From IMG/VR virus record IMGVR_UViG_2802429242_000007: 9,683 bases of DNA. One strand, given 5' to 3'. This document shows, piece after piece, positions 1,189 to 9,683 of the stretch. The notes beneath the pieces are model-generated. The model searched no databases, was not told the DNA's origin, and saw only the letters and a list, made by a program, of their open reading frames with translations. The DNA comes from a virus. Lineage: Duplodnaviria > Heunggongvirae > Uroviricota > Caudoviricetes. Position 1 is the stretch's first letter, and each line of letters opens with the position of its first letter. A program made the translations under genes and the position numbers.

Positions 1189-1533
1189 TCAGAACTCTTC
1201 GATATTCCAGCCACCACCTGCTTTCTTTGGTTTAACCGTTACCCCGATGATTCGGAACGGATACTGATCTGCGGCGACTTTGGTTTTCACCCTGGCGTCG
1301 TCGGTCCAGAAACCTTTCACTTCGTGCAGTTCCATCTCTCCGGTGGCGAGCATCACAGCGAAATCGGGCGTATAAAACGTGTTGTCAGCCAGCCGCAGCT
1401 TGATACCCTCGAACCGATACCAGGCGACTTCCCCTGCACGTTTACGCTGCTCAAGGTGCTGGCAATACGCAGATTCTGTTTTGTTCATCTGGCCTGTTTT
1501 GAGTCGACCAAGAGCCTGTATCTGTTTTCTCAT
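1189..1533 (-). CDS. small PD-(D/E)XK-type nuclease, DUF1064-like (114 aa)
   Basis: 114-aa ORF with a D...E-x-K signature (YTPDFAVMLATGEMELHEVKG) typical of restriction-endonuclease-fold phage nucleases; ATG 1533..1531 with AGAGGT 7 nt upstream. Family is from memory, not searched. Confidence 0.5.
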   Translation of the reverse strand: MRKQIQALGRLKTGQMNKTESAYCQHLEQRKRAGEVAWYRFEGIKLRLADNTFYTPDFAVMLATGEMELHEVKGFWTDDARVKTKVAADQYPFRIIGVTVKPKKAGGGWNIEEF

Positions 1534-1536
1534 GAT

Positions 1537-1614
1537 TTACCTCTAAGGTAATTAAAAACCACATAAGACACGAAATCAATAGATCTAAGAATATTTTGTT
1601 ACCCATTAGGTAAC
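1537..1614 (-). promoter_or_regulatory. promoter-operator cassette for the distal leftward operon: operator sites 1537-1551 and 1598-1614 flanking a sigma70-like promoter
   Basis: Perfect inverted repeats TTACC-tctaa-GGTAA (1537-1551) and GTTACC-catta-GGTAAC (1598-1614), starts 62 bp apart. On the minus strand, -35 TTGATT (1579..1574), 17-bp spacer, -10 TTTAAT (1556..1551); the downstream operator abuts the -10. Confidence 0.6.
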
Positions 1615-1625
1615 TATTGAGGCGT

Positions 1626-1647
1626 AAAAAAATGCGCTATCGCGCTG
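1626..1647 (-). terminator. weak candidate intrinsic terminator after the P-like gene
   Basis: On the minus strand a 4-bp GC stem (GCGC-gata-GCGC, plus 1634-1645) is followed by a run of 7 T (plus A-run 1626-1632). The stem is short, so confidence is low. Confidence 0.3.
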
Positions 1648-1650
1648 GTA

Positions 1651-2436
1651 TTACTTGATAAATCCTGCTGCCTTTCCTCGCCTGTATTCCTCCATCAGCC
1701 ACTGCGCCGGTGTTATTCCCCCCAGGGTGGCGGCGTTAGGCATGCACCCGAAACTTCGCCCTGGTGGATGGTAAACATCTCTCCCTGTGTCCGGAGGCGT
1801 ACTCATGGGTTCTGGCTTTGCCTGTATGCTGATCACCGGATCGGGTATCTGCTGTCCGGAAGCCACCTTTTTCGCCCAATCATCGAGCAGCCTGCGCGCG
1901 TGTTTCTCAACCTCAATCTCGCTAAGCTGGCGCTGATACATTGCACGGCGGGTATCACATACGACCCAGTACATAACCGGATGCCGCCACGGGAATCTTT
2001 CGGGACCACCAGGATATAAACTTTTTTCCTTGCTGTACCGGTGAAACTCCGCCATCACATCGTCAATGGTGACGCCAAGAACCATCTTGCTGTCTTTACA
2101 CCACTTGATGAATTGCCCTGGCGACGGCCAGAACGGAGACTCACTGGCGCGGGCGTGGCGCATACCAGCAGAAACCTGTTCACGGGTTCGGATCCCCCCT
2201 TCGGCAAACGCAGCAATCCACTGCTGTTTTGCAGCAACTTCCTGCTCTGGCGTCTTCAGGTTGGTTACCACTGCCGCCGGAAAGAGTTGTTTCAGCTGTT
2301 TGAAAAGGGCATCAACAAGCCTCTCTGCTGACATGTTCACCACGTTGTCATTGTTGGTGTACTGATGCTCATAACCTGACATGCGAGAAAGGGCTTCTCC
2401 GTCACGGTTTTGTATCGCGGTAAAAACGTTGTTCAC
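1651..2436 (-). CDS. lambda P-like replication protein (helicase loader)
   Basis: Translation contains ...FPAAVVTNLKTPEQEVAAKQQWIAAFAEGGIRTREQVSAGMRHARASESPFWPSPGQFIKWCK..., closely matching the remembered conserved core of lambda P (FLPSPGQF..WC). Start preferred at GTG 2436..2434 (GTGA overlap with the O-like stop) with a perfect GGAGGA 6 nt upstream, rather than the track's ATG at 2451. Confidence 0.85.
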   Translation of the reverse strand: MNNVFTAIQNRDGEALSRMSGYEHQYTNNDNVVNMSAERLVDALFKQLKQLFPAAVVTNLKTPEQEVAAKQQWIAAFAEGGIRTREQVSAGMRHARASESPFWPSPGQFIKWCKDSKMVLGVTIDDVMAEFHRYSKEKSLYPGGPERFPWRHPVMYWVVCDTRRAMYQRQLSEIEVEKHARRLLDDWAKKVASGQQIPDPVISIQAKPEPMSTPPDTGRDVYHPPGRSFGCMPNAATLGGITPAQWLMEEYRRGKAAGFIK

Positions 2437-3248
2437 AAGAAATCCTCCCATGCTTCAGGGCTGTTCCAGTGCGGAACGTTGTTATCAGGTAATGTTGATT
2501 GCTTCTGTCTGCTAATCTGCAGCCGCCTTGCCAGCTTCTGCTCCCACTGTGCCTGATGGTATGCCTTACCCTCAGCCATCCAGTAAATTCTGAACTCTGC
2601 AAGTTCCTGTGCCGTTGGCAGACTGTCCAGGTAGATCCCCTGCAATGAGCTTTTCCGAAGAAAGTCATCTGATGGCTGCCATTGTTCATGCATGACAAAT
2701 TTGCCTAATTGCCCTGGCCCACCAGGAGGAACAAAGTTATTCATCACGGCGTTGTTTGCACCGGGGTCATGAGGCACAGAATCCCCGCTTTTTGTCCTGC
2801 TCTCCCTCTCTTGGTTAAATGACTGGTTATATGACTGGTTCTGGATCCCGTTTTTGGGATCATTCAACATCCCGTTTTTGGGATCATTCAACATCCCGTT
2901 TTTGGGTATATTCCCGTTTTCGGGAACATTGCCGTTTTCGGGTTCATTGCTCCCTTTCCGGTTGCCTTTAATGTTCCCGTTTTTGGTTATATTAAGAGAG
3001 AAAACCCGCACTCTTTTCGTCGCTCCCTTTCTCTCTCCGGTATCTGAAATAAGCCCCATTTTCATGAGCAATATAAGCCCGGCCTGCACGGTTTTTTTAT
3101 TCAGGCAAGTGTCTTTAACGAGGCGTTCTATGCTGGGGTAGCAGAGGTTATATTCATCGGCTCTGTCAGCCATCGAGAGCAGTATGAGCTTTAATGACGA
3201 GCTACCTGGATCTGTCTCCCAGGCCCAATCTGTTGCATGTCTGCTCAT
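2433..3248 (-). CDS. O-like replication initiator: N-terminal winged-HTH, Asn/Gly/Pro-rich repeat linker, C-terminal DnaT-like domain
   Basis: N-terminus WAWETDPGSSSLKLILLSMADRADEYNLCYPSIERLVKDTCLNKKTVQAGLILLMKMGLI resembles the replisome-organizer HTH; C-terminus ...MHEQWQPSDDFLRKSSLQGIYLDSLPTAQELAEFRIYWMAEGKAYHQAQWEQKLARRL resembles the DnaT C-terminal domain. ATG 3248..3246 with GGAG 7 nt upstream. The iteron array lies inside the gene, as ori-lambda lies inside O. Confidence 0.8.
   Translation of the reverse strand: MSRHATDWAWETDPGSSSLKLILLSMADRADEYNLCYPSIERLVKDTCLNKKTVQAGLILLMKMGLISDTGERKGATKRVRVFSLNITKNGNIKGNRKGSNEPENGNVPENGNIPKNGMLNDPKNGMLNDPKNGIQNQSYNQSFNQERESRTKSGDSVPHDPGANNAVMNNFVPPGGPGQLGKFVMHEQWQPSDDFLRKSSLQGIYLDSLPTAQELAEFRIYWMAEGKAYHQAQWEQKLARRLQISRQKQSTLPDNNVPHWNSPEAWEDFL
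2845..2990. repeat. iteron array (candidate origin of replication) inside the O-like gene
   Basis: 24-bp direct repeats start at 2845, 2869 and 2893 (the first two identical: atcccgtttttgggatcattcaac). Degenerate copies follow at 2912-2925 (TCCCGTTTTCGGGA, itself palindromic), 2931-2942 and 2975-2986. Core motif is CCCGTTTT(T/C)GGG. Confidence 0.75.
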
Positions 3249-3263
3249 GATTAATCTCCGCTA

Positions 3264-3464
3264 TCAGCTTGAATGTTGTGGGGAGGAATTAATCATGATC
3301 TGCTTAATCTCTGCCCTGATGCGACGGTTTGATTCCATGGTGCACTCAACACAGTGTCCGTTGTAAACCCAGCGTTCACTGTCATGTCCGTGCTTACATG
3401 GTTTTCCGGTGTAGTAGCGTTTAAGTCCGCGCTTTGCGGCATCAATACGTGTAATGATTTCCAT
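3264..3464 (-). CDS. small zinc-finger (Cys/His cluster) phage early protein, 66 aa
   Basis: MEIITRIDAAKRGLKRYYTGKPCKHGHDSERWVYNGHCVEC... carries a C-x-H-x-H...C-x2-C cluster. It sits between the Cro-like gene and the O-like gene, the position of cII in lambda. Start chosen at ATG 3464..3462; the track's TTG start at 3527 adds a hydrophobic low-complexity extension. Function not assigned. Confidence 0.5.
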   Translation of the reverse strand: MEIITRIDAAKRGLKRYYTGKPCKHGHDSERWVYNGHCVECTMESNRRIRAEIKQIMINSSPQHSS

Positions 3465-3544
3465 GGTAAGCCCTGTTATTAGTATTGGGATTACGGTTAT
3501 TTTGTGCTGACACAAAAAAAAGATCAACCATATTTGGTTTTTTA

Positions 3545-3559
3545 TTACCTTTGAGGTAC
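3545..3559. promoter_or_regulatory. operator-like site (TTACC-tttga-GGTAc) between the terminator and the zinc-finger gene
   Basis: A 9/10 match to the TTACC-N5-GGTAA motif. On the minus strand it lies just upstream of a possible promoter (-35 TTGATC, 17-bp spacer, -10 CAAAAT). Confidence 0.4.
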
Positions 3560-3565
3560 GAATAG

Positions 3566-3593
3566 ATATGAAAAGACCGCCGGATGGCGGTCT
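3566..3593 (-). terminator. intrinsic terminator downstream of the Cro-like gene (tR1-like position)
   Basis: On the minus strand, 21 nt after the stop: AGACCGCC-atcc-GGCGGTCT (perfect 8-bp GC-rich stem, plus 3574-3593) followed by TTTTCATAT. Confidence 0.6.
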
Positions 3594-3614
3594 ACAGAGG
3601 GTTGTGGCTGGATA

Positions 3615-3845
3615 TCATGAGTAGAAGAAGTATGCCAGTTCTGCTTTTGAGCGCAGCCATTGTCTTGTTTTACAGGCTTTAAAAAGCCCATTCATCAATA
3701 CCTTACCTGGCATTTTGCGCTTACCTGTTAAGTGAGTCTGGATATAGTGACTCGTCGTTCCGGCTTCCTGTGCGAAGGCTTCACGCTCATCCGGAGTAAG
3801 TGCAAGCCAGTGCTTTTTGAAATCGAAATGTCCGTTATCGCTCAT
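3615..3845 (-). CDS. Cro/CII-like small HTH DNA-binding regulator, 76 aa
   Basis: First gene of the leftward operon, divergent from the repressor. An HTH-like segment (REAFAQEAGTTSHYIQTHLTGKRKMPGKVL) is visible. Functional role is inferred from position. Confidence 0.6.
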   Translation of the reverse strand: MSDNGHFDFKKHWLALTPDEREAFAQEAGTTSHYIQTHLTGKRKMPGKVLMNGLFKACKTRQWLRSKAELAYFFYS

Positions 3846-3870
3846 AGCTATTGCCTGATATTTATTTCAG

Positions 3871-3944
3871 ATAATAAATATTCACCTATAAGGTAACAAA
3901 AATCAAGGATAGTTACCCACGAGGTGCATTTACCTGTTGGGTAA
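3871..3944. promoter_or_regulatory. divergent control region: three operator sites plus a leftward PR-like promoter
   Basis: Sites TcACC-tataa-GGTAA (3882-3896), TTACC-cacga-GGTgc (3913-3927) and TTACC-tgttg-GGTAA (3930-3944). Leftward promoter on the minus strand: -35 TTGTTA (3899..3894), 17-bp spacer, -10 TATTAT (3876..3871), overlapping the first site. A weaker rightward promoter may overlap the third site. Confidence 0.55.
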
Positions 3945-3999
3945 TATTGCTTTAAATTGAATCATCTTCTGATTCAGATATGAGGCGATTTTCCAGAAA

Positions 4000-4584
4000 A
4001 TGAAAAGTATCCAGGACGTCCGCAGGCAAAATCTCAACGACTTGATCGACCGTGAATTCAATGGTGTTCAGACGCGGATGGCTGAAAAACTTGGAACTCA
4101 GGCAAATCTGGTAAACCGCTGGGCTCTTGGCAAGAAGGTTATCGGCGACCAGGTTGCACGAAAAATTGAAGCTGCCGCCAATAAACCCCGTAACTGGCTT
4201 GATATCGATCGCTCGCTTTCTCAGGAAGGTTTTCAGCCTGTCGGCCCAAGCGACATTGGCCAGCTGGCGGCTCACAACCTGGAACGCTGGATGAGCGAAA
4301 GCCGCGACCTTTCAACACAGGGAAAACTTCACCGCGCATCCGGCGTAGCCCAGGTGACAATCAGCCGCCTGTTAAACAATGAGGTCAGCGTTTCCATTTC
4401 CACCCTGGAGAATGTTGCATCCGCATTCGGGCGTCACGGCTATGAATTACTGATTCACCCGCACGACCCTGCGACCATCAACTATGATCGCTCGCGCTAC
4501 GCATTGTTACCCGAAACCGAGAAAGCAAAGATCGAAAGTTACATTGAATTTGTCATCAACCAGAACGAAAAAAACAAACAATAA
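4000..4584 (+). CDS. CI-like immunity repressor with two XRE-type HTH domains and no S24 peptidase domain, 194 aa
   Basis: Two HTH-like segments: QTRMAEKLGTQANLVNRWALGKKVIGDQVARKIEAAANKPRNWL and LSTQGKLHRASGVAQVTISRLLNNEVSVSISTLENVASAFGRHGYEL. No Ala-Gly/Ser...Lys autocleavage module is visible. Divergent from the Cro-like gene and flanked by operator clusters. Confidence 0.7.
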   Translation: MKSIQDVRRQNLNDLIDREFNGVQTRMAEKLGTQANLVNRWALGKKVIGDQVARKIEAAANKPRNWLDIDRSLSQEGFQPVGPSDIGQLAAHNLERWMSESRDLSTQGKLHRASGVAQVTISRLLNNEVSVSISTLENVASAFGRHGYELLIHPHDPATINYDRSRYALLPETEKAKIESYIEFVINQNEKNKQ

Positions 4585-4604
4585 AACCATATTTTTCAGT
4601 AAGT

Positions 4605-4630
4605 AAGCCGCCTTATGGCGGCTTTTTTAT
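4605..4630 (+). terminator. intrinsic terminator after the repressor gene
   Basis: AAGCCGCC-ttat-GGCGGCTT (8-bp stem) followed by TTTTTTAT, 20 nt after the stop. Confidence 0.7.
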
Positions 4631-4640
4631 TGCCTATTCG

Positions 4641-4718
4641 ATTACCTAACGGGTAATTTTTTTAACTCATATCTATTGACATCAAACCATATACGCATAA
4701 TTATTACCTCAACGGTAA
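4641..4718 (+). promoter_or_regulatory. promoter-operator cassette (PL-like) for the rightward operon: operator sites 4641-4657 and 4704-4718 flanking a sigma70-like promoter
   Basis: ATTACC-taacg-GGTAAT (4641-4657) and TTACC-tcaac-GGTAA (4704-4718), starts 62 bp apart. -35 TTGACA (4676-4681), 17-bp spacer, -10 AATTAT (4699-4704). The geometry matches the 1537-1614 cassette exactly. Confidence 0.6.
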
Positions 4719-4737: not shown

Positions 4738-4890
4738 ATGCAGTGGAAAATCATCAACGGTTGGTACTGCGTTACTGCATGCGGATTCATGAGCTGGAAG
4801 TTCCGCACCTTACAGGAAGGCATTAAGTGGGCTTTCGTCAGCAAAGAAGCTCGCGATGTGGCCAACGATAACGAGATATGGGAGGGCTGA
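4738..4890 (+). CDS. small Trp/Cys-rich protein, 50 aa, first gene of the rightward operon
   Basis: ATG 4738 with GAGGT 8 nt upstream; MQWKIINGWYCVTACGFMSWKFRTLQEGIKWAFVSKEARDVANDNEIWEG. Not in the ORF track, probably because of a length cutoff. The stop lies within the next gene's ribosome-binding region. Confidence 0.45.
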   Translation: MQWKIINGWYCVTACGFMSWKFRTLQEGIKWAFVSKEARDVANDNEIWEG

Positions 4891-4892
4891 TA

Positions 4893-5192
4893 ATGAACGT
4901 TAATCAGCAGAAAAATCTTCAAAAAATCATGCTGGCATTCGACAAGGACTACCGCCTGTCAGAACAGCTATATGACCGACAAGTTGAACTGATTGAGAGC
5001 ATCCGACTTCATCAACTGTCCTCAACTTTCGACGTTGTAACAGGCAAAGGCGTTCGTCAGGAAGTACTGGAGGCTGCTAAAGACAGCCCTGAGTTCGAAG
5101 AACTGATGGATGCCTATCGGCGAGAGGCAATGGCAATTATCGCCCGCTGGGATCTGGCTGATCAGCTTGATGGGCAGAGGGACGCGGCATGA
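4893..5192 (+). CDS. hypothetical phage early protein, 99 aa
   Basis: ATG 4893 with GGAGGG 6 nt upstream (the track's start at 4878 is less likely); stop overlaps the exonuclease ATG (ATGA at 5189-5192). Confidence 0.6.
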   Translation: MNVNQQKNLQKIMLAFDKDYRLSEQLYDRQVELIESIRLHQLSSTFDVVTGKGVRQEVLEAAKDSPEFEELMDAYRREAMAIIARWDLADQLDGQRDAA

Positions 5193-6010
5193 AACCGGGA
5201 ATTTATTTCGACATCAGCAACGAAGACTACCACGCCGGTGACGGCGTGAGTAAGTCGCAACTGGACATGGTTGCCAAGAATCCGGCGCTTCTTAAATGGG
5301 TTCAGGCAGCACCAGAAGACGAAGAGAAAAAGTCTGCACTGGATATGGGAACCGCATTGCACTGCCTGCTTCTGGAACCTGGAGAATTCGACAAACGCTT
5401 CATCGTTTCACCGAAATTCGATCGTCGGACGAAACAAGGTAAAGCTGACGAAGAGGCATTTCTTCGTGATGTGGCGGATATGGGGATTACGGTACTTGAT
5501 GCCGAGCAGTGGCGGAAACTGGAGCTGATGCGTGATAGCGCAATGGCTCACCCGGCGGCACGCTGGATGCTGGAAGCCCCTGGTTACTGCGAAGCATCAA
5601 TGTACTGGAACGATGAAGATACGGGTGAGTTGTGCCGCATTCGTCCAGACAAATGGCTGAACGAGCACAACGTGATCGTCGACGTGAAAAAGGTTGCAGA
5701 TATGGACCGTTTTGCACGCCACATCGAGGAATTCCGCTACCACGTGCAGGACGCAATGTACCGCGAAGGCGCAATGAGGGTTACTGGTCAGCCGCATGGT
5801 TTTTTCTTTCTTGCCGTGAGCGAAAGCATTGATTGTGGTCGATATCCGGTACGCGTGTTCGAGCTGGATGCGCCGGATGTCGATGCCGGGCACGCTCTGT
5901 TCCGCCGGGATCTGAATACCTATCACGAATGCCGCATCAACGATGAGTGGGGCGGAGTGGAAATTATTAAACGCCATGACTGGGCACGTAAACAGGATAT
6001 GTACGTATGA
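5189..6010 (+). CDS. PD-(D/E)XK exonuclease of the RecE (exodeoxyribonuclease VIII) C-terminal-domain type, 273 aa
   Basis: N-terminus MKPGIYFDISNEDYHAGDGVSKSQL and an internal D...VDVKK motif fit the RecE-type nuclease domain as I recall it; ATGA-coupled to the downstream annealing protein, as in recE-recT. Confidence 0.7.
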   Translation: MKPGIYFDISNEDYHAGDGVSKSQLDMVAKNPALLKWVQAAPEDEEKKSALDMGTALHCLLLEPGEFDKRFIVSPKFDRRTKQGKADEEAFLRDVADMGITVLDAEQWRKLELMRDSAMAHPAARWMLEAPGYCEASMYWNDEDTGELCRIRPDKWLNEHNVIVDVKKVADMDRFARHIEEFRYHVQDAMYREGAMRVTGQPHGFFFLAVSESIDCGRYPVRVFELDAPDVDAGHALFRRDLNTYHECRINDEWGGVEIIKRHDWARKQDMYV

Positions 6011-6888
6011 GCAATGATATCGCAATCACATCACAACCAGGCGCAACTGTAGGTACTGCTGCGGCAATCTTCAGCCCGGAGGGCATGAATCAACTGGTGC
6101 GTTTCGCGGAGTTGATGTCACAAAGCAAAGCGACTGTACCGAAACATCTTGAAGGCAAACCTGCCGATTGTCTGGCGGTGACCATGCAGGCGGCACAGTG
6201 GGGAATGAACCCTTTCGCCGTGGCGCAGAAAACGCATGTGGTAAACGGAACGTTAGGCTACGAAGCACAGTTGGTAAACGCGGTCGTATCCTCTTCCAGC
6301 CTGCTAGCGACACGCCTGAATTATCGCTGGAGCGGTGACTGGTCGAATGTTAACGGCAAAACAGATAAATCACCGAATCTGACGGTAACTGTGTCAGCAG
6401 TTCTTAAAGGAGAAGCAGAACCCCGTGAGCTTACCATCAGTATGGCGCAAGCCGGAGTGCGTAACTCTCCATTGTGGGAACAGGATCCGCGCCAGCAACT
6501 TGCCTATCTTTGCACGAAACGATGGGCTCGCCTGCACGCTCCTGATGTACTTCTCGGTGTTTACACCCCAGACGAATTACAGGAAACGGCACCGCGCGTT
6601 GAGCGAGACATTACTCCGCAAACGACTACTGCTGCGGGAATGAACAGTCTGATCAACGCTAAACCAGCGAAAAAGCATGATGAGCAAACGCGTAAAGCGG
6701 ATAGCCGTGATCCAGAAGAAATGCTGATGGCCTTTACCAGCGCAGCGATGAATTACAGCACTGTCTCCGAACTGGATAAGGCTTACAAATACATTGCACA
6801 AAAACTTTCAGATGATGACGAACTGCTGGCAAAAGCCACCGACGTTTACAGCGTTCGTCGGGAAGAATTAAACGAAACATCTATGTAA
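6007..6888 (+). CDS. RecT/Red-beta family single-strand annealing protein, 293 aa
   Basis: Core ...CLAVTMQAAQWGMNPFAVAQKTHVVNG... resembles the RecT/Bet conserved region, and an ERDITP motif is shared with my recollection of lambda Bet. Sits immediately after the exonuclease with an ATGA overlap. Confidence 0.75.
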   Translation: MSNDIAITSQPGATVGTAAAIFSPEGMNQLVRFAELMSQSKATVPKHLEGKPADCLAVTMQAAQWGMNPFAVAQKTHVVNGTLGYEAQLVNAVVSSSSLLATRLNYRWSGDWSNVNGKTDKSPNLTVTVSAVLKGEAEPRELTISMAQAGVRNSPLWEQDPRQQLAYLCTKRWARLHAPDVLLGVYTPDELQETAPRVERDITPQTTTAAGMNSLINAKPAKKHDEQTRKADSRDPEEMLMAFTSAAMNYSTVSELDKAYKYIAQKLSDDDELLAKATDVYSVRREELNETSM

Positions 6889-6937: not shown

Positions 6938-7186
6938 ATGAAAGGTGCATTAGGTAAGAAGGAACTCCTGGCGGTGGTGCCACTGTCATGGAGCACTATC
7001 GACCGTATGGAGCGCGCAGGGGAATTTCCTAAACGCTGGTATATCACTGACAAACGCTGCGCATGGAACCGTGATGAAGTTGAGCGTTGGCTTGATGAAC
7101 GTCAGGCAGCAAGCCCGGCAGAGTTCCAAGGTAAAAAACCTCCTGTTCAGCAACGTGTATATCGTCCTGTGAGCAACGCGGCATGA
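6938..7186 (+). CDS. AlpA/Xis-family excisionase-like DNA-binding protein, 82 aa
   Basis: LLAVVPLSWSTIDRMERAGEFPKRWYITDKRCAWNRDEVERWLDER fits the AlpA/excisionase winged-helix pattern; GAGAGG 6 nt upstream of the ATG. Confidence 0.75.
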   Translation: MKGALGKKELLAVVPLSWSTIDRMERAGEFPKRWYITDKRCAWNRDEVERWLDERQAASPAEFQGKKPPVQQRVYRPVSNAA

Positions 7187-8432: not shown

Positions 8433-9683
8433 TTATTCCCCCGCCATCCACTTCTCAAACTTCGACGGGGAGAACGGAATCAGATCCGTATGCTCCCCGT
8501 CAATCCATGAATCAATCATATCGGCCCACTGCTGCAACATGTAGGCGCGCTGTCTGGCGTATTCCGCTTTGTTATATACGGCGCGCACACCTTTCTGCTC
8601 ATGTGCCAGAGCCTTTTCAATCCAGTCTGAAGGATAACCAGCCTCATGCAACAACGTACTGGCTGTACGGCGCATATCATGTACAGTGAAGTCCTGAATA
8701 TGCTCACCATCTTCATTTATTATTTTCACCGTTCTGTCGATCAGAGAGTTCAGCGCGGCATTAGATAATGGCTTCCGGAAATTGTAACGACCAGGAACCA
8801 GATATTCACTTCCACCAGCGCACATCTGCAACCCGACCAATATATCCTGTGCCTGTTTAGGCAGGTAAATAACGTGCGCCCGGCTTCCCTTCATGCGGTC
8901 TGGAGGAATTGTCCATGTCCATTTTTTAAAATCTATTTCATCCCACGTTGCATTGGTGAATTCGCCCTTACGAACCATAGTGATAAGCACCAGTTTTAAA
9001 GCCATTTTCATAGTGCCCATAGCACCAATGGCATCCAGCGTGCGGAAGAACAGGCCAATTTCTTCTGGTGTCAGTGTTCGCTCTCGTGGTTTAAATATGG
9101 CGATAGACGAAGGTTTAATGTCAGCCGCAGGATTAAACAAACCATGACCACGGTCATTGGCGTGACGGTATACGCTACTGATGATCTCCCTGGCCTGCAC
9201 TGCTGTTGCCCGGCCACCGCGTTCGACAATCCGGTCACACAAATCACGAACCATCGATGTGGTAATTTCAGCCATCATTTTATTGCCAAGAGCCGGAAGT
9301 ATGTCACGGTCGATCACCGCCTGTTTCATTGCGCGGGTACTGTCAGCCAGGATGACGTGTTTCATATAACTGTCGGTATGTACCGCAAACGTCTCGGCAC
9401 CACGAATCTTTTTGATACCGTCACGTTTAGCCGCAGCCGGTGACTGGCCTGCTTTAAGCAGCTTCTTTGCAGCAATCAGTTCTTCTCGCGCTTCTGCCAG
9501 GCTGATACCGTCACGCCCATACTGCCCGATTACCAGTGTTTCGCGGCGACCGTTGATACGGTAGTCATAGCGAAACGAGACCGTGCCTGACGTAAGCACA
9601 GCTACATACAGCCCGTCACGATCGGAGACCTTGTACAGTTTGTCCTGCGGCTTGAGGTTTTTTAATTTTGTATCGGTAAGCAC
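8433..9683 (-). CDS. int: tyrosine site-specific integrase, P4-like family; 5' end at or just beyond the window edge
   Basis: 416 codons; N-terminal arm-binding-type sequence (LTDTKLKNLKPQDKLYKVSDRDGLYVAV) and a C-terminal catalytic region with the H-x-x-R box (HDMRRTASTLL) and a Tyr-containing tail (VYNKAEYARQRAYMLQQWADMID). The first in-window codon is GTG at 9683, so the true start may lie 1-3 codons outside. Confidence 0.9.
   Translation of the reverse strand: MLTDTKLKNLKPQDKLYKVSDRDGLYVAVLTSGTVSFRYDYRINGRRETLVIGQYGRDGISLAEAREELIAAKKLLKAGQSPAAAKRDGIKKIRGAETFAVHTDSYMKHVILADSTRAMKQAVIDRDILPALGNKMMAEITTSMVRDLCDRIVERGGRATAVQAREIISSVYRHANDRGHGLFNPAADIKPSSIAIFKPRERTLTPEEIGLFFRTLDAIGAMGTMKMALKLVLITMVRKGEFTNATWDEIDFKKWTWTIPPDRMKGSRAHVIYLPKQAQDILVGLQMCAGGSEYLVPGRYNFRKPLSNAALNSLIDRTVKIINEDGEHIQDFTVHDMRRTASTLLHEAGYPSDWIEKALAHEQKGVRAVYNKAEYARQRAYMLQQWADMIDSWIDGEHTDLIPFSPSKFEKWMAGE

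What the first reader, a model, noticed from the sequence alone, without database searches (positions are those of the whole stretch)
1537..4718. A 15-bp inverted-repeat operator (TTACC-N5-GGTAA) occurs eight times in four intergenic clusters
Five perfect copies: 1537-1551, 1599-1613, 3930-3944, 4642-4656, 4704-4718. Three near-copies: 3545-3559, 3882-3896, 3913-3927. Every copy is intergenic; a by-eye scan of all GGTAA and TTACC occurrences found no full site inside coding sequence. A specific 10-bp palindromic motif is expected well under once by chance in 9.7 kb. Lambda CI controls two operator regions; here one motif marks four control points, suggesting one repressor gates replication, recombination and cargo operons directly. 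Which protein binds (the tandem-HTH repressor or the Cro-like protein) is unknown.
Basis: seen in the sequence. Interest (0 to 1): 0.65.

Follow-up and report, generated by a model that had tools for sequence, protein, structure and literature searches.

The report
Rep repressor operators of phiV10-like prophage
The repeated TTACC-N5-GGTAA palindrome is real and is almost certainly the operator of this prophage's master repressor. The same motif is already annotated as the repressor-binding site in phage epsilon15, and the repressor has been studied in phage SPC32H, so the finding is correct but not new.

Summary
There are five perfect TTACC-N5-GGTAA sites against 0.01 expected. There are also two one-mismatch sites and one two-mismatch site. 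All eight are intergenic.

The window is the early region of an epsilon15/phiV10-type (Uetakevirus) prophage of E. coli beside guaA. The public epsilon15 record already annotates the same 17-bp palindrome, ATTACC-N5-GGTAAT, as "repressor / lysogeny" binding sites at the orthologous positions. The 194-aa protein at 4000-4584 is a full-length homologue of the SPC32H repressor Rep (PDB 5D50). Rep is reported to bind palindromic operators as a tetramer and to be inactivated by the antirepressor Ant.

My added results:
- The sites continue outside the window at about nine conserved promoter regions per phage genome, 8-11 perfect sites each.
- Half-sites are under purifying selection while the N5 spacer drifts.
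- Two early promoters are each bracketed by an operator pair 62 bp apart, centred near -62 and +1. That spacing is kept in 109 of 114 distinct sequences of this class.
- The motif does not change across Rep proteins from 42 to 100% identity.

Novelty is low. The bridging of the 62-bp pairs by one Rep tetramer is my inference and is untested.

The parts
4642..4656 (.). Upstream operator of the early-left (PL-like) promoter. Perfect TTACCTAACGGGTAA, centred about -62.
   Evidence: It lies 10 bp after the T-tract of the rep terminator and 19 bp before the -35 hexamer. It is orthologous to the epsilon15 'repressor' feature 32616-32632.
4676..4704 (+). PL-like sigma70 promoter, TTGACA-17-AATTAT. 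It drives 4738-4890, 4893-5192, the PD-(D/E)XK exonuclease, RecT, the AlpA-type gene, PerC, MT-A70 and DUF1382.
   Evidence: 10 of 12 consensus matches. The -35 and -10 elements are conserved in 12 related genomes.
4704..4718 (.). Downstream operator of the PL-like promoter. Perfect TTACCTCAACGGTAA; it shares its first T with the -10 hexamer and is centred about +1.
   Evidence: It is 62 bp centre-to-centre from 4642. It is orthologous to epsilon15 feature 32554-32570.
3930..3944 (.). Switch-region operator A. Perfect; 56 bp upstream of the rep ATG.
   Evidence: Perfect in all 12 related genomes compared.
3913..3927 (.). Switch-region operator B. Two mismatches (GGTGC); 17 bp from A.
   Evidence: The orthologous site is perfect in epsilon15, SPC32H and the Klebsiella phages, and has one mismatch in L009.
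3882..3896 (.). Switch-region operator C. One mismatch (TCACC). It lies in the spacer of the predicted rightward (PR-like) promoter of the 76-aa cro-like gene.
   Evidence: A -35 TTGATT (3906-3901, minus strand) is conserved in all 12 genomes. The site carries at least one mismatch (GGTGA-type, or GGTGT in the Klebsiella loci) in every genome compared.
3545..3559 (.). Single one-mismatch operator after the terminator of the cro-like gene. It is centred about -60 of the predicted gp40/replication promoter (TTGATC 3527-3522, CAAAAT 3504-3499, minus strand).
   Evidence: One-mismatch sites are conserved at this position in phiV10, Tyrion, L008 and BUCT711; the site is weaker (ACACC) in the epsilon15 type.
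1599..1613 (.). Upstream operator of the post-replication promoter. Perfect; centred about -62.
   Evidence: Orthologous to epsilon15 'repressor' feature 35906-35922.
1551..1579 (-). Predicted promoter TTGATT-17-TTTAAT for the DUF1064 gene and the downstream ea-type genes.
   Evidence: The geometry is identical to the PL module: a 19-bp gap, a 17-bp spacer, and the last T of the -10 hexamer serving as the first base of the operator.
1537..1551 (.). Downstream operator of the post-replication promoter. Perfect; centred about +1. It contains the Shine-Dalgarno GAGG of the DUF1064 gene (ATG at 1533).
   Evidence: It is 62 bp from 1599. A perfect orthologue exists in epsilon15 (35969) that the epsilon15 record does not annotate.
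4000..4584 (+). Rep, the prophage master repressor (194 aa): an N-terminal HTH DNA-binding domain, a variable linker, an HTH_3-like dimerisation domain and a C-terminal tetramerisation/Ant-binding segment.
   Evidence: 5D50, E 4e-42, residues 1-190; PMC9986798; PMC9638917. The identical protein, ORF21 of phage ZX5, affected the lytic-lysogenic cycle when overexpressed (PMC9782041).
3615..3845 (-). 76-aa Cro-like HTH protein (homologue of epsilon15 gp39), a possible second reader of the switch-region operators.
   Evidence: phrog_35, transcriptional repressor, E 5.6e-13; 58-84% identical across five phages, with AGTTSHYIQ and HLT invariant.
4605..4632 (+). Intrinsic terminator of rep, which insulates rep from the PL module.
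   Evidence: annotated in the phiV10 record.
3574..3593 (-). Intrinsic terminator after the cro-like gene.
   Evidence: annotated in the phiV10 record.
1626..1645 (-). Putative terminator after replication gene P.
   Evidence: Annotated in the phiV10 record (mapped by offset). The sequence is GCGCGATAGCGC followed by T7. The simple scan did not call it.

Best explanation
The eight sites are operators for Rep, the 194-aa repressor encoded at 4000-4584 of this epsilon15/phiV10-type prophage.

A pair of N-terminal HTH domains reads the two half-sites of ATTACC-N5-GGTAAT. In the lysogen, Rep occupies operators at every early promoter and so silences each terminator-insulated transcription unit directly, without a lambda-style N/Q antitermination cascade:
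- operator C (3882-3896) lies in the spacer of the rightward promoter of the cro-like gene;
- operators A and B (3930, 3913) lie upstream of rep and probably autoregulate it;
- the early-left promoter and the post-replication promoter are each bracketed by two perfect operators centred near -62 and +1, exactly 62 bp apart (about six helical turns).

I infer that one Rep tetramer, which carries two pairs of DNA-binding domains on flexible linkers, holds both operators of a pair at once and encloses the promoter.

Induction would not occur by RecA-stimulated self-cleavage, because Rep has no S24 peptidase domain. It would occur through the LexA-controlled antirepressor Ant, which is encoded elsewhere in the phage.

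Shown here: the sites, their positions relative to terminators and predicted promoters, selection on the half-sites, the spacing constraint, and homology of Rep to the SPC32H repressor.

Taken from others: the epsilon15 record's 'repressor' annotation of the motif, the tetramer, the domain roles and the action of Ant.

Inferred: which operator does what, and bridging of the 62-bp pairs.
For: Statistics: 5 perfect sites against 0.01 expected, and 7 against 0.18 at up to one mismatch. This is the top palindrome in an unbiased enumeration.

Identity of the element: the window is 96-98% identical to phiV10, phiv142-3 and ZX5, and lies beside guaA.

Prior annotation: the epsilon15 RefSeq record lists seven 'protein_bind, repressor, lysogeny' features. 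All are ATTACC-N5-GGTAAT, and three are orthologous to window sites 4642, 4704 and 1599.

The protein: full-length match to the SPC32H Rep structure 5D50 (E 4e-42). Citing papers describe Rep as binding palindromic sites as a tetramer, with a DBD-MDD-tetramerisation architecture. Overexpression of the identical protein in phage ZX5 affected the lytic-lysogenic cycle.

Comparative evidence:
- Five complete Uetakevirus genomes have 8-11 perfect sites at the same roughly nine regions.
- Six prophages in Superficieibacter, Erwinia, Klebsiella, Citrobacter and Scandinavium, plus four more loci with Rep at 54-65% identity, show the same motif as their top palindrome.

Selection: among 80 loci with an identical Rep, half-site columns are polymorphic in 2 of 50, N5 columns in 11 of 25 (Fisher P = 4.5e-5) and other intergenic columns in 45 of 232 (P = 0.006).

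Geometry: both bracketed promoters have an identical layout of 19-bp gap, -35, 17-bp spacer and a -10 overlapping the operator. Among distinct sequences of neighbouring pairs, the spacing is 62 bp in 109, 61 bp in 2 and 63 bp in 3, even though a slippage-prone T7 run lies between the two operators of the early-left (PL) pair.

DNA-binding domain: NL..RW of the putative recognition helix is invariant, while the linker (about residues 71-88) varies in sequence and length.

Pfam finds no S24 peptidase domain in Rep. phiV10 encodes a protein 88% identical to SPC32H Ant, with a LexA-box-like sequence upstream.
Against: No binding or reporter data exist for this phage, and none can be produced here.

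The three primary papers (Kropinski 2007, Kim and Ryu 2013, Kim 2016) are not in the held library. I therefore could not confirm that the operator DNA used in the SPC32H assays was this palindrome, or whether the epsilon15 annotation is experimental or predicted.

The cro-like protein is as conserved as the Rep DNA-binding domain, and the motif never changes across the family. Covariation therefore cannot assign the motif to Rep over the cro-like protein.

A single site centred at -60 (3545) would not by itself occlude RNA polymerase.

Bridging across 62 bp needs either a tight DNA bend or long linker reach. Some relatives (Serratia L100 and L099) use 18-bp or 75-bp arrangements at the same places, so 62 bp is not obligatory.

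Promoters and transcription start sites are consensus predictions only.
Confidence: 0.85

Rival explanations
1. The motif is read mainly, or also, by the 76-aa Cro-like protein (3615-3845). As in lambda, Cro and the repressor might share the switch-region operators. The cro-like protein might also use the dispersed sites to shut down early promoters late in infection.
For: The protein is an HTH family member (phrog_35, 'transcriptional repressor'). It is 58-84% identical across phages that share the motif, with an invariant AGTTSHYIQ-HLT segment. The switch region holds three sites of graded quality (perfect, two mismatches, one mismatch), the pattern that Cro/CI competition produces in lambda (established knowledge).
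Against: The epsilon15 record assigns the sites to the repressor. Rep is described as binding palindromic sites. A second conserved palindrome, AACC-N6-GGTT / ATRTGGTT, recurs at these promoters and could equally be the cro-like protein's or another regulator's target. Nothing here tests this rival directly.
Confidence: 0.3
2. The repeats are only a by-product of duplicated promoter/terminator modules (paralogous DNA) and are not a protein-binding site.
For: The PL and post-replication modules are clearly paralogous. They share CTATTGA at the -35 and have identical spacings.
Against: Half-sites are invariant while the N5 spacer and flanks drift. Both half-sites are conserved symmetrically, with a central A/T in 96% of sites. 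Sites also occur in non-paralogous contexts: inside a promoter spacer, upstream of promoters, over a ribosome-binding site, and before terS. The motif persists across genera where the surrounding sequence is only about 60% identical.
Confidence: 0.02
3. Some sites act as transcriptional roadblocks placed after leaky terminators, like the 'stoperators' of mycobacteriophage L5, and do not occlude a promoter.
For: Every cluster lies directly after an intrinsic terminator. In relatives, the terS-proximal pair and the third epsilon15 PL-side site follow a hairpin with no recognisable sigma70 promoter before the gene. The site at 3545 is centred at -60, too far upstream to block polymerase binding.
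Against: The sites are symmetric, so they cannot be orientation-dependent in the way L5 stoperators are (established knowledge). In the window, five of the eight sites overlap or abut the core elements of predicted promoters. The strict 62-bp pairing has no explanation under a roadblock model.
Confidence: 0.15
4. The motif is the target of a host protein, or of a replication, packaging or recombination function, and not of an immunity repressor.
For: No direct evidence. The motif does not fall inside the iteron array of the O-like gene (2812-2950).
Against: Among the loci examined, the motif occurs only where a full-length Rep homologue is encoded. It is absent from 78 kb of unrelated bacterial loci that encode only a distant N-terminal-domain homologue of Rep. 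Where a promoter can be recognised it sits at that promoter, and it is annotated as repressor-binding in epsilon15.
Confidence: 0.03

Closest known systems
Repressor-binding sites annotated in Salmonella phage epsilon15 (NC_004775.2 / AY150271; Kropinski et al. 2007, not readable here)
   Same: Same 17-bp palindrome ATTACC-N5-GGTAAT and same genus (Uetakevirus). The positions are orthologous: the PL pair 62 bp apart and the post-replication site. The flanking genes are the same.
   Different: The Rep proteins are only 42% identical overall. The epsilon15 record lists 7 of its 11 perfect sites and none in the rep/gp39 intergenic region. Switch-region site B is perfect in epsilon15 but degenerate here. 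Epsilon15 has a third PL-side site 76 bp further on. The site after the cro-like gene is stronger here.
Rep/Ant immunity system of Salmonella phage SPC32H (PDB 5D50, 5D4Z; Kim and Ryu 2013; Kim et al. 2016)
   Same: The window protein aligns over its full length with SPC32H Rep (E 4e-42). SPC32H carries the same motif at the same places. Rep is described as a tetramer that binds palindromic sites and is disassembled by a tetrameric antirepressor. phiV10 encodes a protein 88% identical to Ant.
   Different: About 42% identity, with most divergence in the linker and middle domain. The ant gene lies outside this window. I could not check which operators were tested experimentally.
Lambda CI/Cro with OR and OL
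   Same: Divergent repressor and cro-like genes with three operators of unequal quality between them, and a second operator cluster at the early-left promoter.
   Different: No S24 self-cleavage domain. The window shows no sign of N/Q-type antitermination; each unit has its own terminator, promoter and operator. There are operators at about nine regions per genome, not two. The operator is 15-17 bp with a 5-bp non-contacted centre. Pairs are 62 bp apart around a promoter, whereas lambda has adjacent sites about 24 bp apart plus a 2.4-kb loop (lambda facts from established knowledge).
Many-site phage repressors: mycobacteriophage L5 gp71 stoperators and Streptomyces phiC31 c-repressor conserved inverted repeats
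   Same: One repressor with many dispersed sites across early and late regions, giving direct genome-wide silencing. This is a resemblance in logic, recalled from established knowledge.
   Different: No homology was tested. L5 sites are asymmetric, orientation-dependent and mostly within transcribed regions. Here the sites are symmetric and promoter-proximal.
Tetrameric looping repressors: LacI, GalR and Rco of plasmid pLS20
   Same: A tetramer with two DNA-reading heads, and operator pairs that flank a promoter. Rco uses two operators 75 bp apart and shares the tetramerisation fold with SPC32H Rep, according to PMC9986798.
   Different: Bridging is untested here. At 62 bp, the distance is shorter than the classical lac (92 bp) and gal (113 bp) loops (those two figures are from established knowledge).

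Membership tests
Uetakevirus (epsilon15/SPC32H-type) Rep-operator immunity system | A Rep homologue with an N-terminal HTH DNA-binding domain, a middle HTH_3-like dimerisation domain and a C-terminal tetramerisation/Ant-binding segment. | tested here: met
   5D50, E 4e-42, query residues 1-190 aligned to chain residues 2-197. HTH_3 at 106-147 and a weak YdaS-type HTH at 21-61. Domain roles are from PMC9986798.
Uetakevirus (epsilon15/SPC32H-type) Rep-operator immunity system | The palindrome ATTACC-N5-GGTAAT at positions orthologous to the sites annotated as repressor-binding in epsilon15. | tested here: met
   Window sites 4642, 4704 and 1599 correspond to epsilon15 features 32616, 32554 and 35906.
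Uetakevirus (epsilon15/SPC32H-type) Rep-operator immunity system | Genome context: Uetakevirus early region with a P4-type integrase, integrated beside guaA. | tested here: met
   96-98% identity to phiV10 and phiv142-3; guaA lies next to int in E. coli TUM13773.
Uetakevirus (epsilon15/SPC32H-type) Rep-operator immunity system | A LexA-controlled small antirepressor Ant encoded in the same phage. | not testable with these tools
   The ant region lies outside the 9.7-kb window. In phiV10, which encodes an identical Rep, p24 is 88% identical to SPC32H Ant, with ACTGTATAAATACACAGT upstream.
Uetakevirus (epsilon15/SPC32H-type) Rep-operator immunity system | Physical binding of Rep to the palindrome, and repression of the adjacent promoters. 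| not testable with these tools
   This needs EMSA, footprinting or reporter assays. The primary papers are not held.
Lambda-type CI repressor (LexA/S24 family) | A C-terminal S24 peptidase domain for RecA-stimulated self-cleavage. | tested here: not met
   no Peptidase_S24 hit. The C-terminal part aligns with the SPC32H tetramerisation/Ant-binding region.
Lambda-type CI repressor (LexA/S24 family) | Operators confined to two regions (OL and OR), with late genes controlled by an antitermination cascade. | tested here: not met
   There are four clusters in the window and about nine per genome in relatives, including the terS, late-operon, tail-fibre and lysis promoters.
Mycobacteriophage L5-type stoperators | Asymmetric, orientation-dependent sites inside transcribed regions that block elongation. 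| tested here: not met
   The sites are perfect palindromes, and in the window most overlap or abut predicted promoter elements. A roadblock role for sites such as 3545 is not excluded.

The most novel reading that the evidence does not exclude
One Rep tetramer clamps the two operators that bracket a promoter at a fixed 62 bp (centres about -62 and +1). It does so either by a very small repression loop or by stretching its two DNA-binding pairs along nearly straight DNA on flexible linkers.

Because about 15 such operators are spread over every transcription unit, early and late, the immunity specificity cannot drift. This would explain why the half-sites are identical across Rep proteins from 42 to 100% identity in at least nine genera. 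It predicts broad cross-immunity, and free exchange of promoter-operator modules, among these phages.
Probability: 0.35. Interest if true: 0.5.

Novelty: already known. Interest (0 to 1): 0.25.

Why it matters
phiV10-type prophages are very common. In this search, 364 of 5426 complete E. coli genomes carry at least 80% of this window. phiV10 itself appears in several phage-engineering and reporter-phage papers. A full operator map for these phages helps with engineering them, predicting superinfection immunity and interpreting induction.

The immediate value is a clean annotation. The phiV10-type records lack the operator features that the epsilon15 record carries.

The two points that might go beyond existing knowledge are the strictly conserved 62-bp operator bracket around two early promoters and the invariance of the operator across very divergent repressors. 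Both are testable with simple spacing mutants and cross-immunity assays.

Tried and rejected
1. I tried to read the primary papers by PMC id, DOI and PubMed id: Kropinski 2007 (PMC2698709), Kim and Ryu 2013 (PMC3807360) and Kim 2016 (PMC4983836). None is held. I relied on the epsilon15 record and on papers that cite them.

2. Text searches for the motif itself and for 'Uetakevirus/SPC32H + operator' returned nothing that maps operators.

3. I collected Rep relatives down to 42% identity: five phage genomes, 11 GTDB loci and 4 loci from the protein search. The half-sites are identical in all full-length relatives, and both proteins keep their HTH segments, so the test has no power.

4. Distant hits sharing only the N-terminal 68 residues (Hydrogenovibrio, Thiomicrospira, Paraburkholderia) showed no enriched palindrome and were uninformative.

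5. The scan of viral contigs returned 80 loci that all encode the identical Rep. This was useless for diversity but useful for the polymorphism test.

6. A LexA box in the window: matches are at the chance level.

7. The two-mismatch match inside the cro-like gene (3721-3735) is rejected as an operator. It is not conserved at synonymous positions in relatives.

8. I could not place the promoter of rep (PRM-like) convincingly by eye, so I left it unassigned.

Full report
**What is in the window.** The 9683-bp window is 96-98% identical to the early regions of Escherichia phages phiV10, phiv142-3, PAS61 and ZX5. At least 80% of it is present in 364 of 5426 complete E. coli genomes. In E. coli TUM13773 the same element lies beside guaA. 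It is therefore the integrase-to-replication part of an epsilon15/phiV10-type (genus Uetakevirus) prophage.

The gene order, is:
- int, 8433-9683 (-), truncated by the window end
- DUF1382
- MT-A70 methylase
- PerC-like gene
- AlpA-type gene, 6938-7186
- RecT, 6007-6888
- PD-(D/E)XK exonuclease, 5189-6010
- two small genes, 4893-5192 and 4738-4890
- a 194-aa HTH protein, 4000-4584 (+)
- a 76-aa Cro-like protein, 3615-3845 (-)
- a 66-aa protein, 3264-3464 (-)
- a DnaT-like initiator, 2433-3248 (-)
- a lambda-P-like protein, 1651-2436 (-)
- a DUF1064 protein, 1189-1533 (-)
- ea-type genes

**The observation.** All five perfect TTACC-N5-GGTAA sites are at the stated coordinates, against 0.01 expected. 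Allowing one mismatch gives 7 sites against 0.18 expected. Allowing two gives 10 against 2.65. An unbiased count of every 5/gap/5 palindrome ranks this motif first, with five copies against two for the runners-up.

Each lies at a position where relatives also carry a site. The 3913 position is a perfect site in epsilon15, SPC32H and the Klebsiella phages. All eight sites are intergenic.

Two extra two-mismatch matches in coding DNA are within the chance expectation, and the one at 3721 is not conserved in relatives. About 78 kb of unrelated bacterial DNA contains no perfect site.

**It is a known operator.** The RefSeq record of epsilon15 carries seven 'protein_bind' features labelled repressor / lysogeny. 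Extracting them shows that every one is ATTACC-N5-GGTAAT. Three are the orthologues of window sites 4642, 4704 and 1599.

The 194-aa window protein matches the solved repressor Rep of Salmonella phage SPC32H over its whole length (PDB 5D50, E 4e-42). I could not read the primary papers. Two papers that cite them give the key points:
- Rep binds DNA as a tetramer. The two DNA-binding domains that read one palindromic site come from different dimers of the tetramer. A tetrameric antirepressor, Ant, breaks the tetramer (PMC9638917).
- Rep consists of an N-terminal DNA-binding domain, a middle dimerisation domain and a C-terminal p53-like tetramerisation domain, with the two pairs of middle domains about 100 Å apart (PMC9986798).

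The identical protein is ORF21 of phage ZX5. Its overexpression affected the lytic-lysogenic cycle, but that study mapped no operator (PMC9782041). Pfam finds no S24 self-cleavage domain in Rep. phiV10 encodes a protein 88% identical to SPC32H Ant, with a LexA-box-like sequence upstream.

The label 'tandem-HTH' overstates the role of the second HTH-like domain.

**The sites extend beyond the window.** Scans of five complete genomes (epsilon15, phiV10, SPC32H, Tyrion and Klebsiella phage BUCT711) give 8-11 perfect sites each, at the same set of regions:
- upstream of terS, as a perfect site, in most of these genomes with a one-mismatch partner 18 bp away
- upstream of the gp3 late operon
- in the ant / tail-fibre divergent region
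- upstream of the lysis cassette
- a one-mismatch site upstream of int
- the PL pair
- the rep/cro-like intergenic trio
- after the terminator of the cro-like gene
- after the replication genes

Six prophages from Superficieibacter, Erwinia, Klebsiella, Citrobacter and Scandinavium show the same layout. So do four further loci whose Rep is only 54-65% identical, including one from Serratia. 'Four control points' is thus a window-limited undercount. In this family one motif marks most transcription units in the genome, including the late ones.

**Evidence that the half-sites are functional.** Eighty IMG/VR loci encode the identical Rep. Across the two best-aligned intergenic regions, half-site columns are polymorphic in 2 of 50 cases. 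N5 columns are polymorphic in 11 of 25 (Fisher P = 4.5e-5), and other intergenic columns in 45 of 232 (P = 0.006). A compilation of 66 distinct perfect-core sites gives the extended consensus A-TTACC-WWWWW-GGTAA-T. The flanking A/T is present in 67% of sites and the central base is A or T in 96%. This is the pattern expected for a dimer contacting two 6-bp half-sites across a non-contacted, easily deformed centre.

**Anatomy and likely mechanism in the window.** Each cluster lies just downstream of an intrinsic terminator: 4605-4632, 3574-3593 and about 1626-1645.

The early-left promoter is TTGACA(4676)-17-AATTAT(4704). Operator 4704-4718 begins at the last base of the -10 hexamer, so it is centred near +1. 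Operator 4642-4656 ends 19 bp before the -35 hexamer, so it is centred near -62.

The post-replication module on the minus strand has exactly the same geometry: TTGATT(1579-1574)-17-TTTAAT(1556-1551), with operators 1613-1599 and 1551-1537. Its downstream operator also contains the Shine-Dalgarno sequence of the DUF1064 gene. The two modules are paralogous and are conserved in 12 genomes even where the downstream gene differs (DUF1064 or a RuvC-like resolvase).

In the switch region, a -35 TTGATT (3906-3901, minus strand) is conserved in all 12 genomes. Operator C (3882-3896) fills the spacer of that rightward promoter. Operators B and A lie 31 and 48 bp further towards rep. Site 3545-3559 is centred about -60 of a conserved TTGATC-17-CAAAAT promoter for the gp40/replication operon.

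My reading is that Rep occludes the core of three promoters directly, through C and the two +1 operators, and that the -60/-62 operators act cooperatively with them.

**The 62-bp constraint.** Among distinct sequences of neighbouring site pairs across all loci, the spacing is 62 bp in 109, 61 bp in 2 and 63 bp in 3. Other recurrent spacings are 48 bp (13 sequences), 17-18 bp (10), 30-31 bp (4) and 76 bp (4). The 62-bp spacing persists despite a T7 run between the two PL operators and only about 60% identity of the intervening DNA between the phiV10 and epsilon15 types.

Promoter geometry fixes the downstream operator. It does not fix the 19-bp gap between the upstream operator and the -35 hexamer. 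Sixty-two bp is about 5.9 helical turns, which places both operators on one face of the helix. Rep is a tetramer with two DNA-reading pairs. Its linker (about residues 71-88) is the most variable part of the protein in sequence and length, which suggests a flexible tether.

I therefore infer that one tetramer holds both operators and encloses the promoter. It could do so by a tight loop or, given about 100 Å between the middle-domain pairs plus two linkers, along nearly straight DNA. This is inference only. The Serratia locus and locus L099 use 18- or 75-bp arrangements at these places, so the architecture is not universal.

**Rivals.** The Cro-like protein is an HTH protein (phrog_35) and is as conserved as the Rep DNA-binding domain. 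Because the motif never changes across the family, covariation cannot separate the two readers. It may well share the switch-region sites, as Cro does in lambda.

A pure 'duplicated module' explanation is contradicted by the contrast between half-site and N5 polymorphism and by the occurrence of sites in non-paralogous contexts.

A roadblock role after leaky terminators is possible for some sites, namely 3545 and, in relatives, the terS pair. It does not explain the strict pairing.

**Comparison and novelty.** This element belongs to the Uetakevirus Rep-operator system: the protein, motif, positions and context criteria are all met. It works like lambda immunity in its divergent switch region. 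It fails lambda-family membership because it has no S24 domain and its operators are not confined to two regions. In logic it resembles many-site repressors (L5 gp71, the phiC31 c repressor) and tetrameric looping repressors (LacI, GalR, Rco). Those comparisons rest on established knowledge, not on tests made here.

The motif and its assignment are already in a public record of the type phage, and the repressor has solved structures. I therefore rate the finding as already known, with interest 0.25. The parts I could not find described are the conserved 62-bp bracket and the invariance of the operator across repressors from 42 to 100% identity. They would be modestly interesting if confirmed.

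Noticed in passing
window 1557-1564 (-), 3526-3539, 4585-4592 (-), 4685-4692 (-); also L004 3311, 20924, 24736-24749, 33132, 35119: A second conserved motif, ATRTGGTT, often forming the palindrome AACC-N6-GGTT. It occurs four times in the window, always intergenic and always on the minus strand; about 0.6 copies are expected from simple base odds. In relatives it lies 7 nt upstream of -10-like hexamers of the gp3 late operon, the tail-fibre gene and the lysis cassette, always downstream of a Rep operator. It may be the site of another regulator (the cro-like protein, the PerC-like protein or a gp49-like regulator) or a late-promoter element.
   Followed up: partly
window 2812-2950: Three adjoining tandem-repeat arrays inside the DnaT-like initiator gene: 12 bp x 2.4, 24 bp x 2.6 at 100% identity, and 18 bp x 3.1. 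This is very likely the replication origin (iterons), as in lambda gene O.
   Followed up: partly
L003-L013 and L099-L102 compared with the window: The operator half-sites are identical in every full-length Rep relative found, from 42 to 100% protein identity, in Escherichia, Salmonella, Klebsiella, Enterobacter, Citrobacter, Superficieibacter, Erwinia, Scandinavium and Serratia. Lambdoid phages diversify their immunity specificity; this family appears not to. Having about 15 dispersed operators per genome may make a change of specificity very hard.
   Followed up: partly
L004 (phiV10) 41-122: The perfect site at 87 and its one-mismatch partner at 105 lie inside the annotated phiV10 terS coding sequence (41-715). 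In epsilon15 and Tyrion the same pair lies upstream of the terS start codon. The phiV10 terS start is probably annotated too far upstream.
   Followed up: no
L004 20543-20890; L005 19676-20030: phiV10 p24 is 88% identical to the SPC32H antirepressor Ant, although the two Rep proteins are only about 42% identical. A LexA-box-like sequence (ACTGTATAAATACACAGT) and a Rep operator both lie in the ant / tail-fibre divergent region.
   Followed up: partly
L003 26865-26915 and the equivalent region upstream of int in L004-L012: The conserved one-mismatch 'site' upstream of int (TTACC-N5-GGTAT) is embedded in a larger inverted repeat (GACGGTAT ... ATACCGTC). The epsilon15 record labels this stretch as RNase III and integrase-binding sites, so it may not be a Rep operator at all.
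   Followed up: no
L100 (Serratia) 2285/2303 and 5922/5997; L099 2642/2660: Some more distant relatives replace the 62-bp bracket with an adjacent pair 18 bp apart, or with a 75-bp pair. The spacing rule therefore has alternatives within the family.
   Followed up: partly
window 1189-1613 compared with L003 35907-36451 and L006 37265-37809: The terminator-operator-promoter-operator module after the replication genes is conserved, while the first gene it drives differs: DUF1064 here, and a RuvC-like resolvase in epsilon15 and Tyrion. The module looks like a mosaic recombination boundary.
   Followed up: partly
window 5189-6888: The exonuclease (5189-6010) and RecT (6007-6888) are separate overlapping genes here. 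The phiV10 record annotates a single RecE-RecT fusion of 1761 bp at this place, which is either a frameshift difference or an annotation or sequencing issue in phiV10.
   Followed up: no
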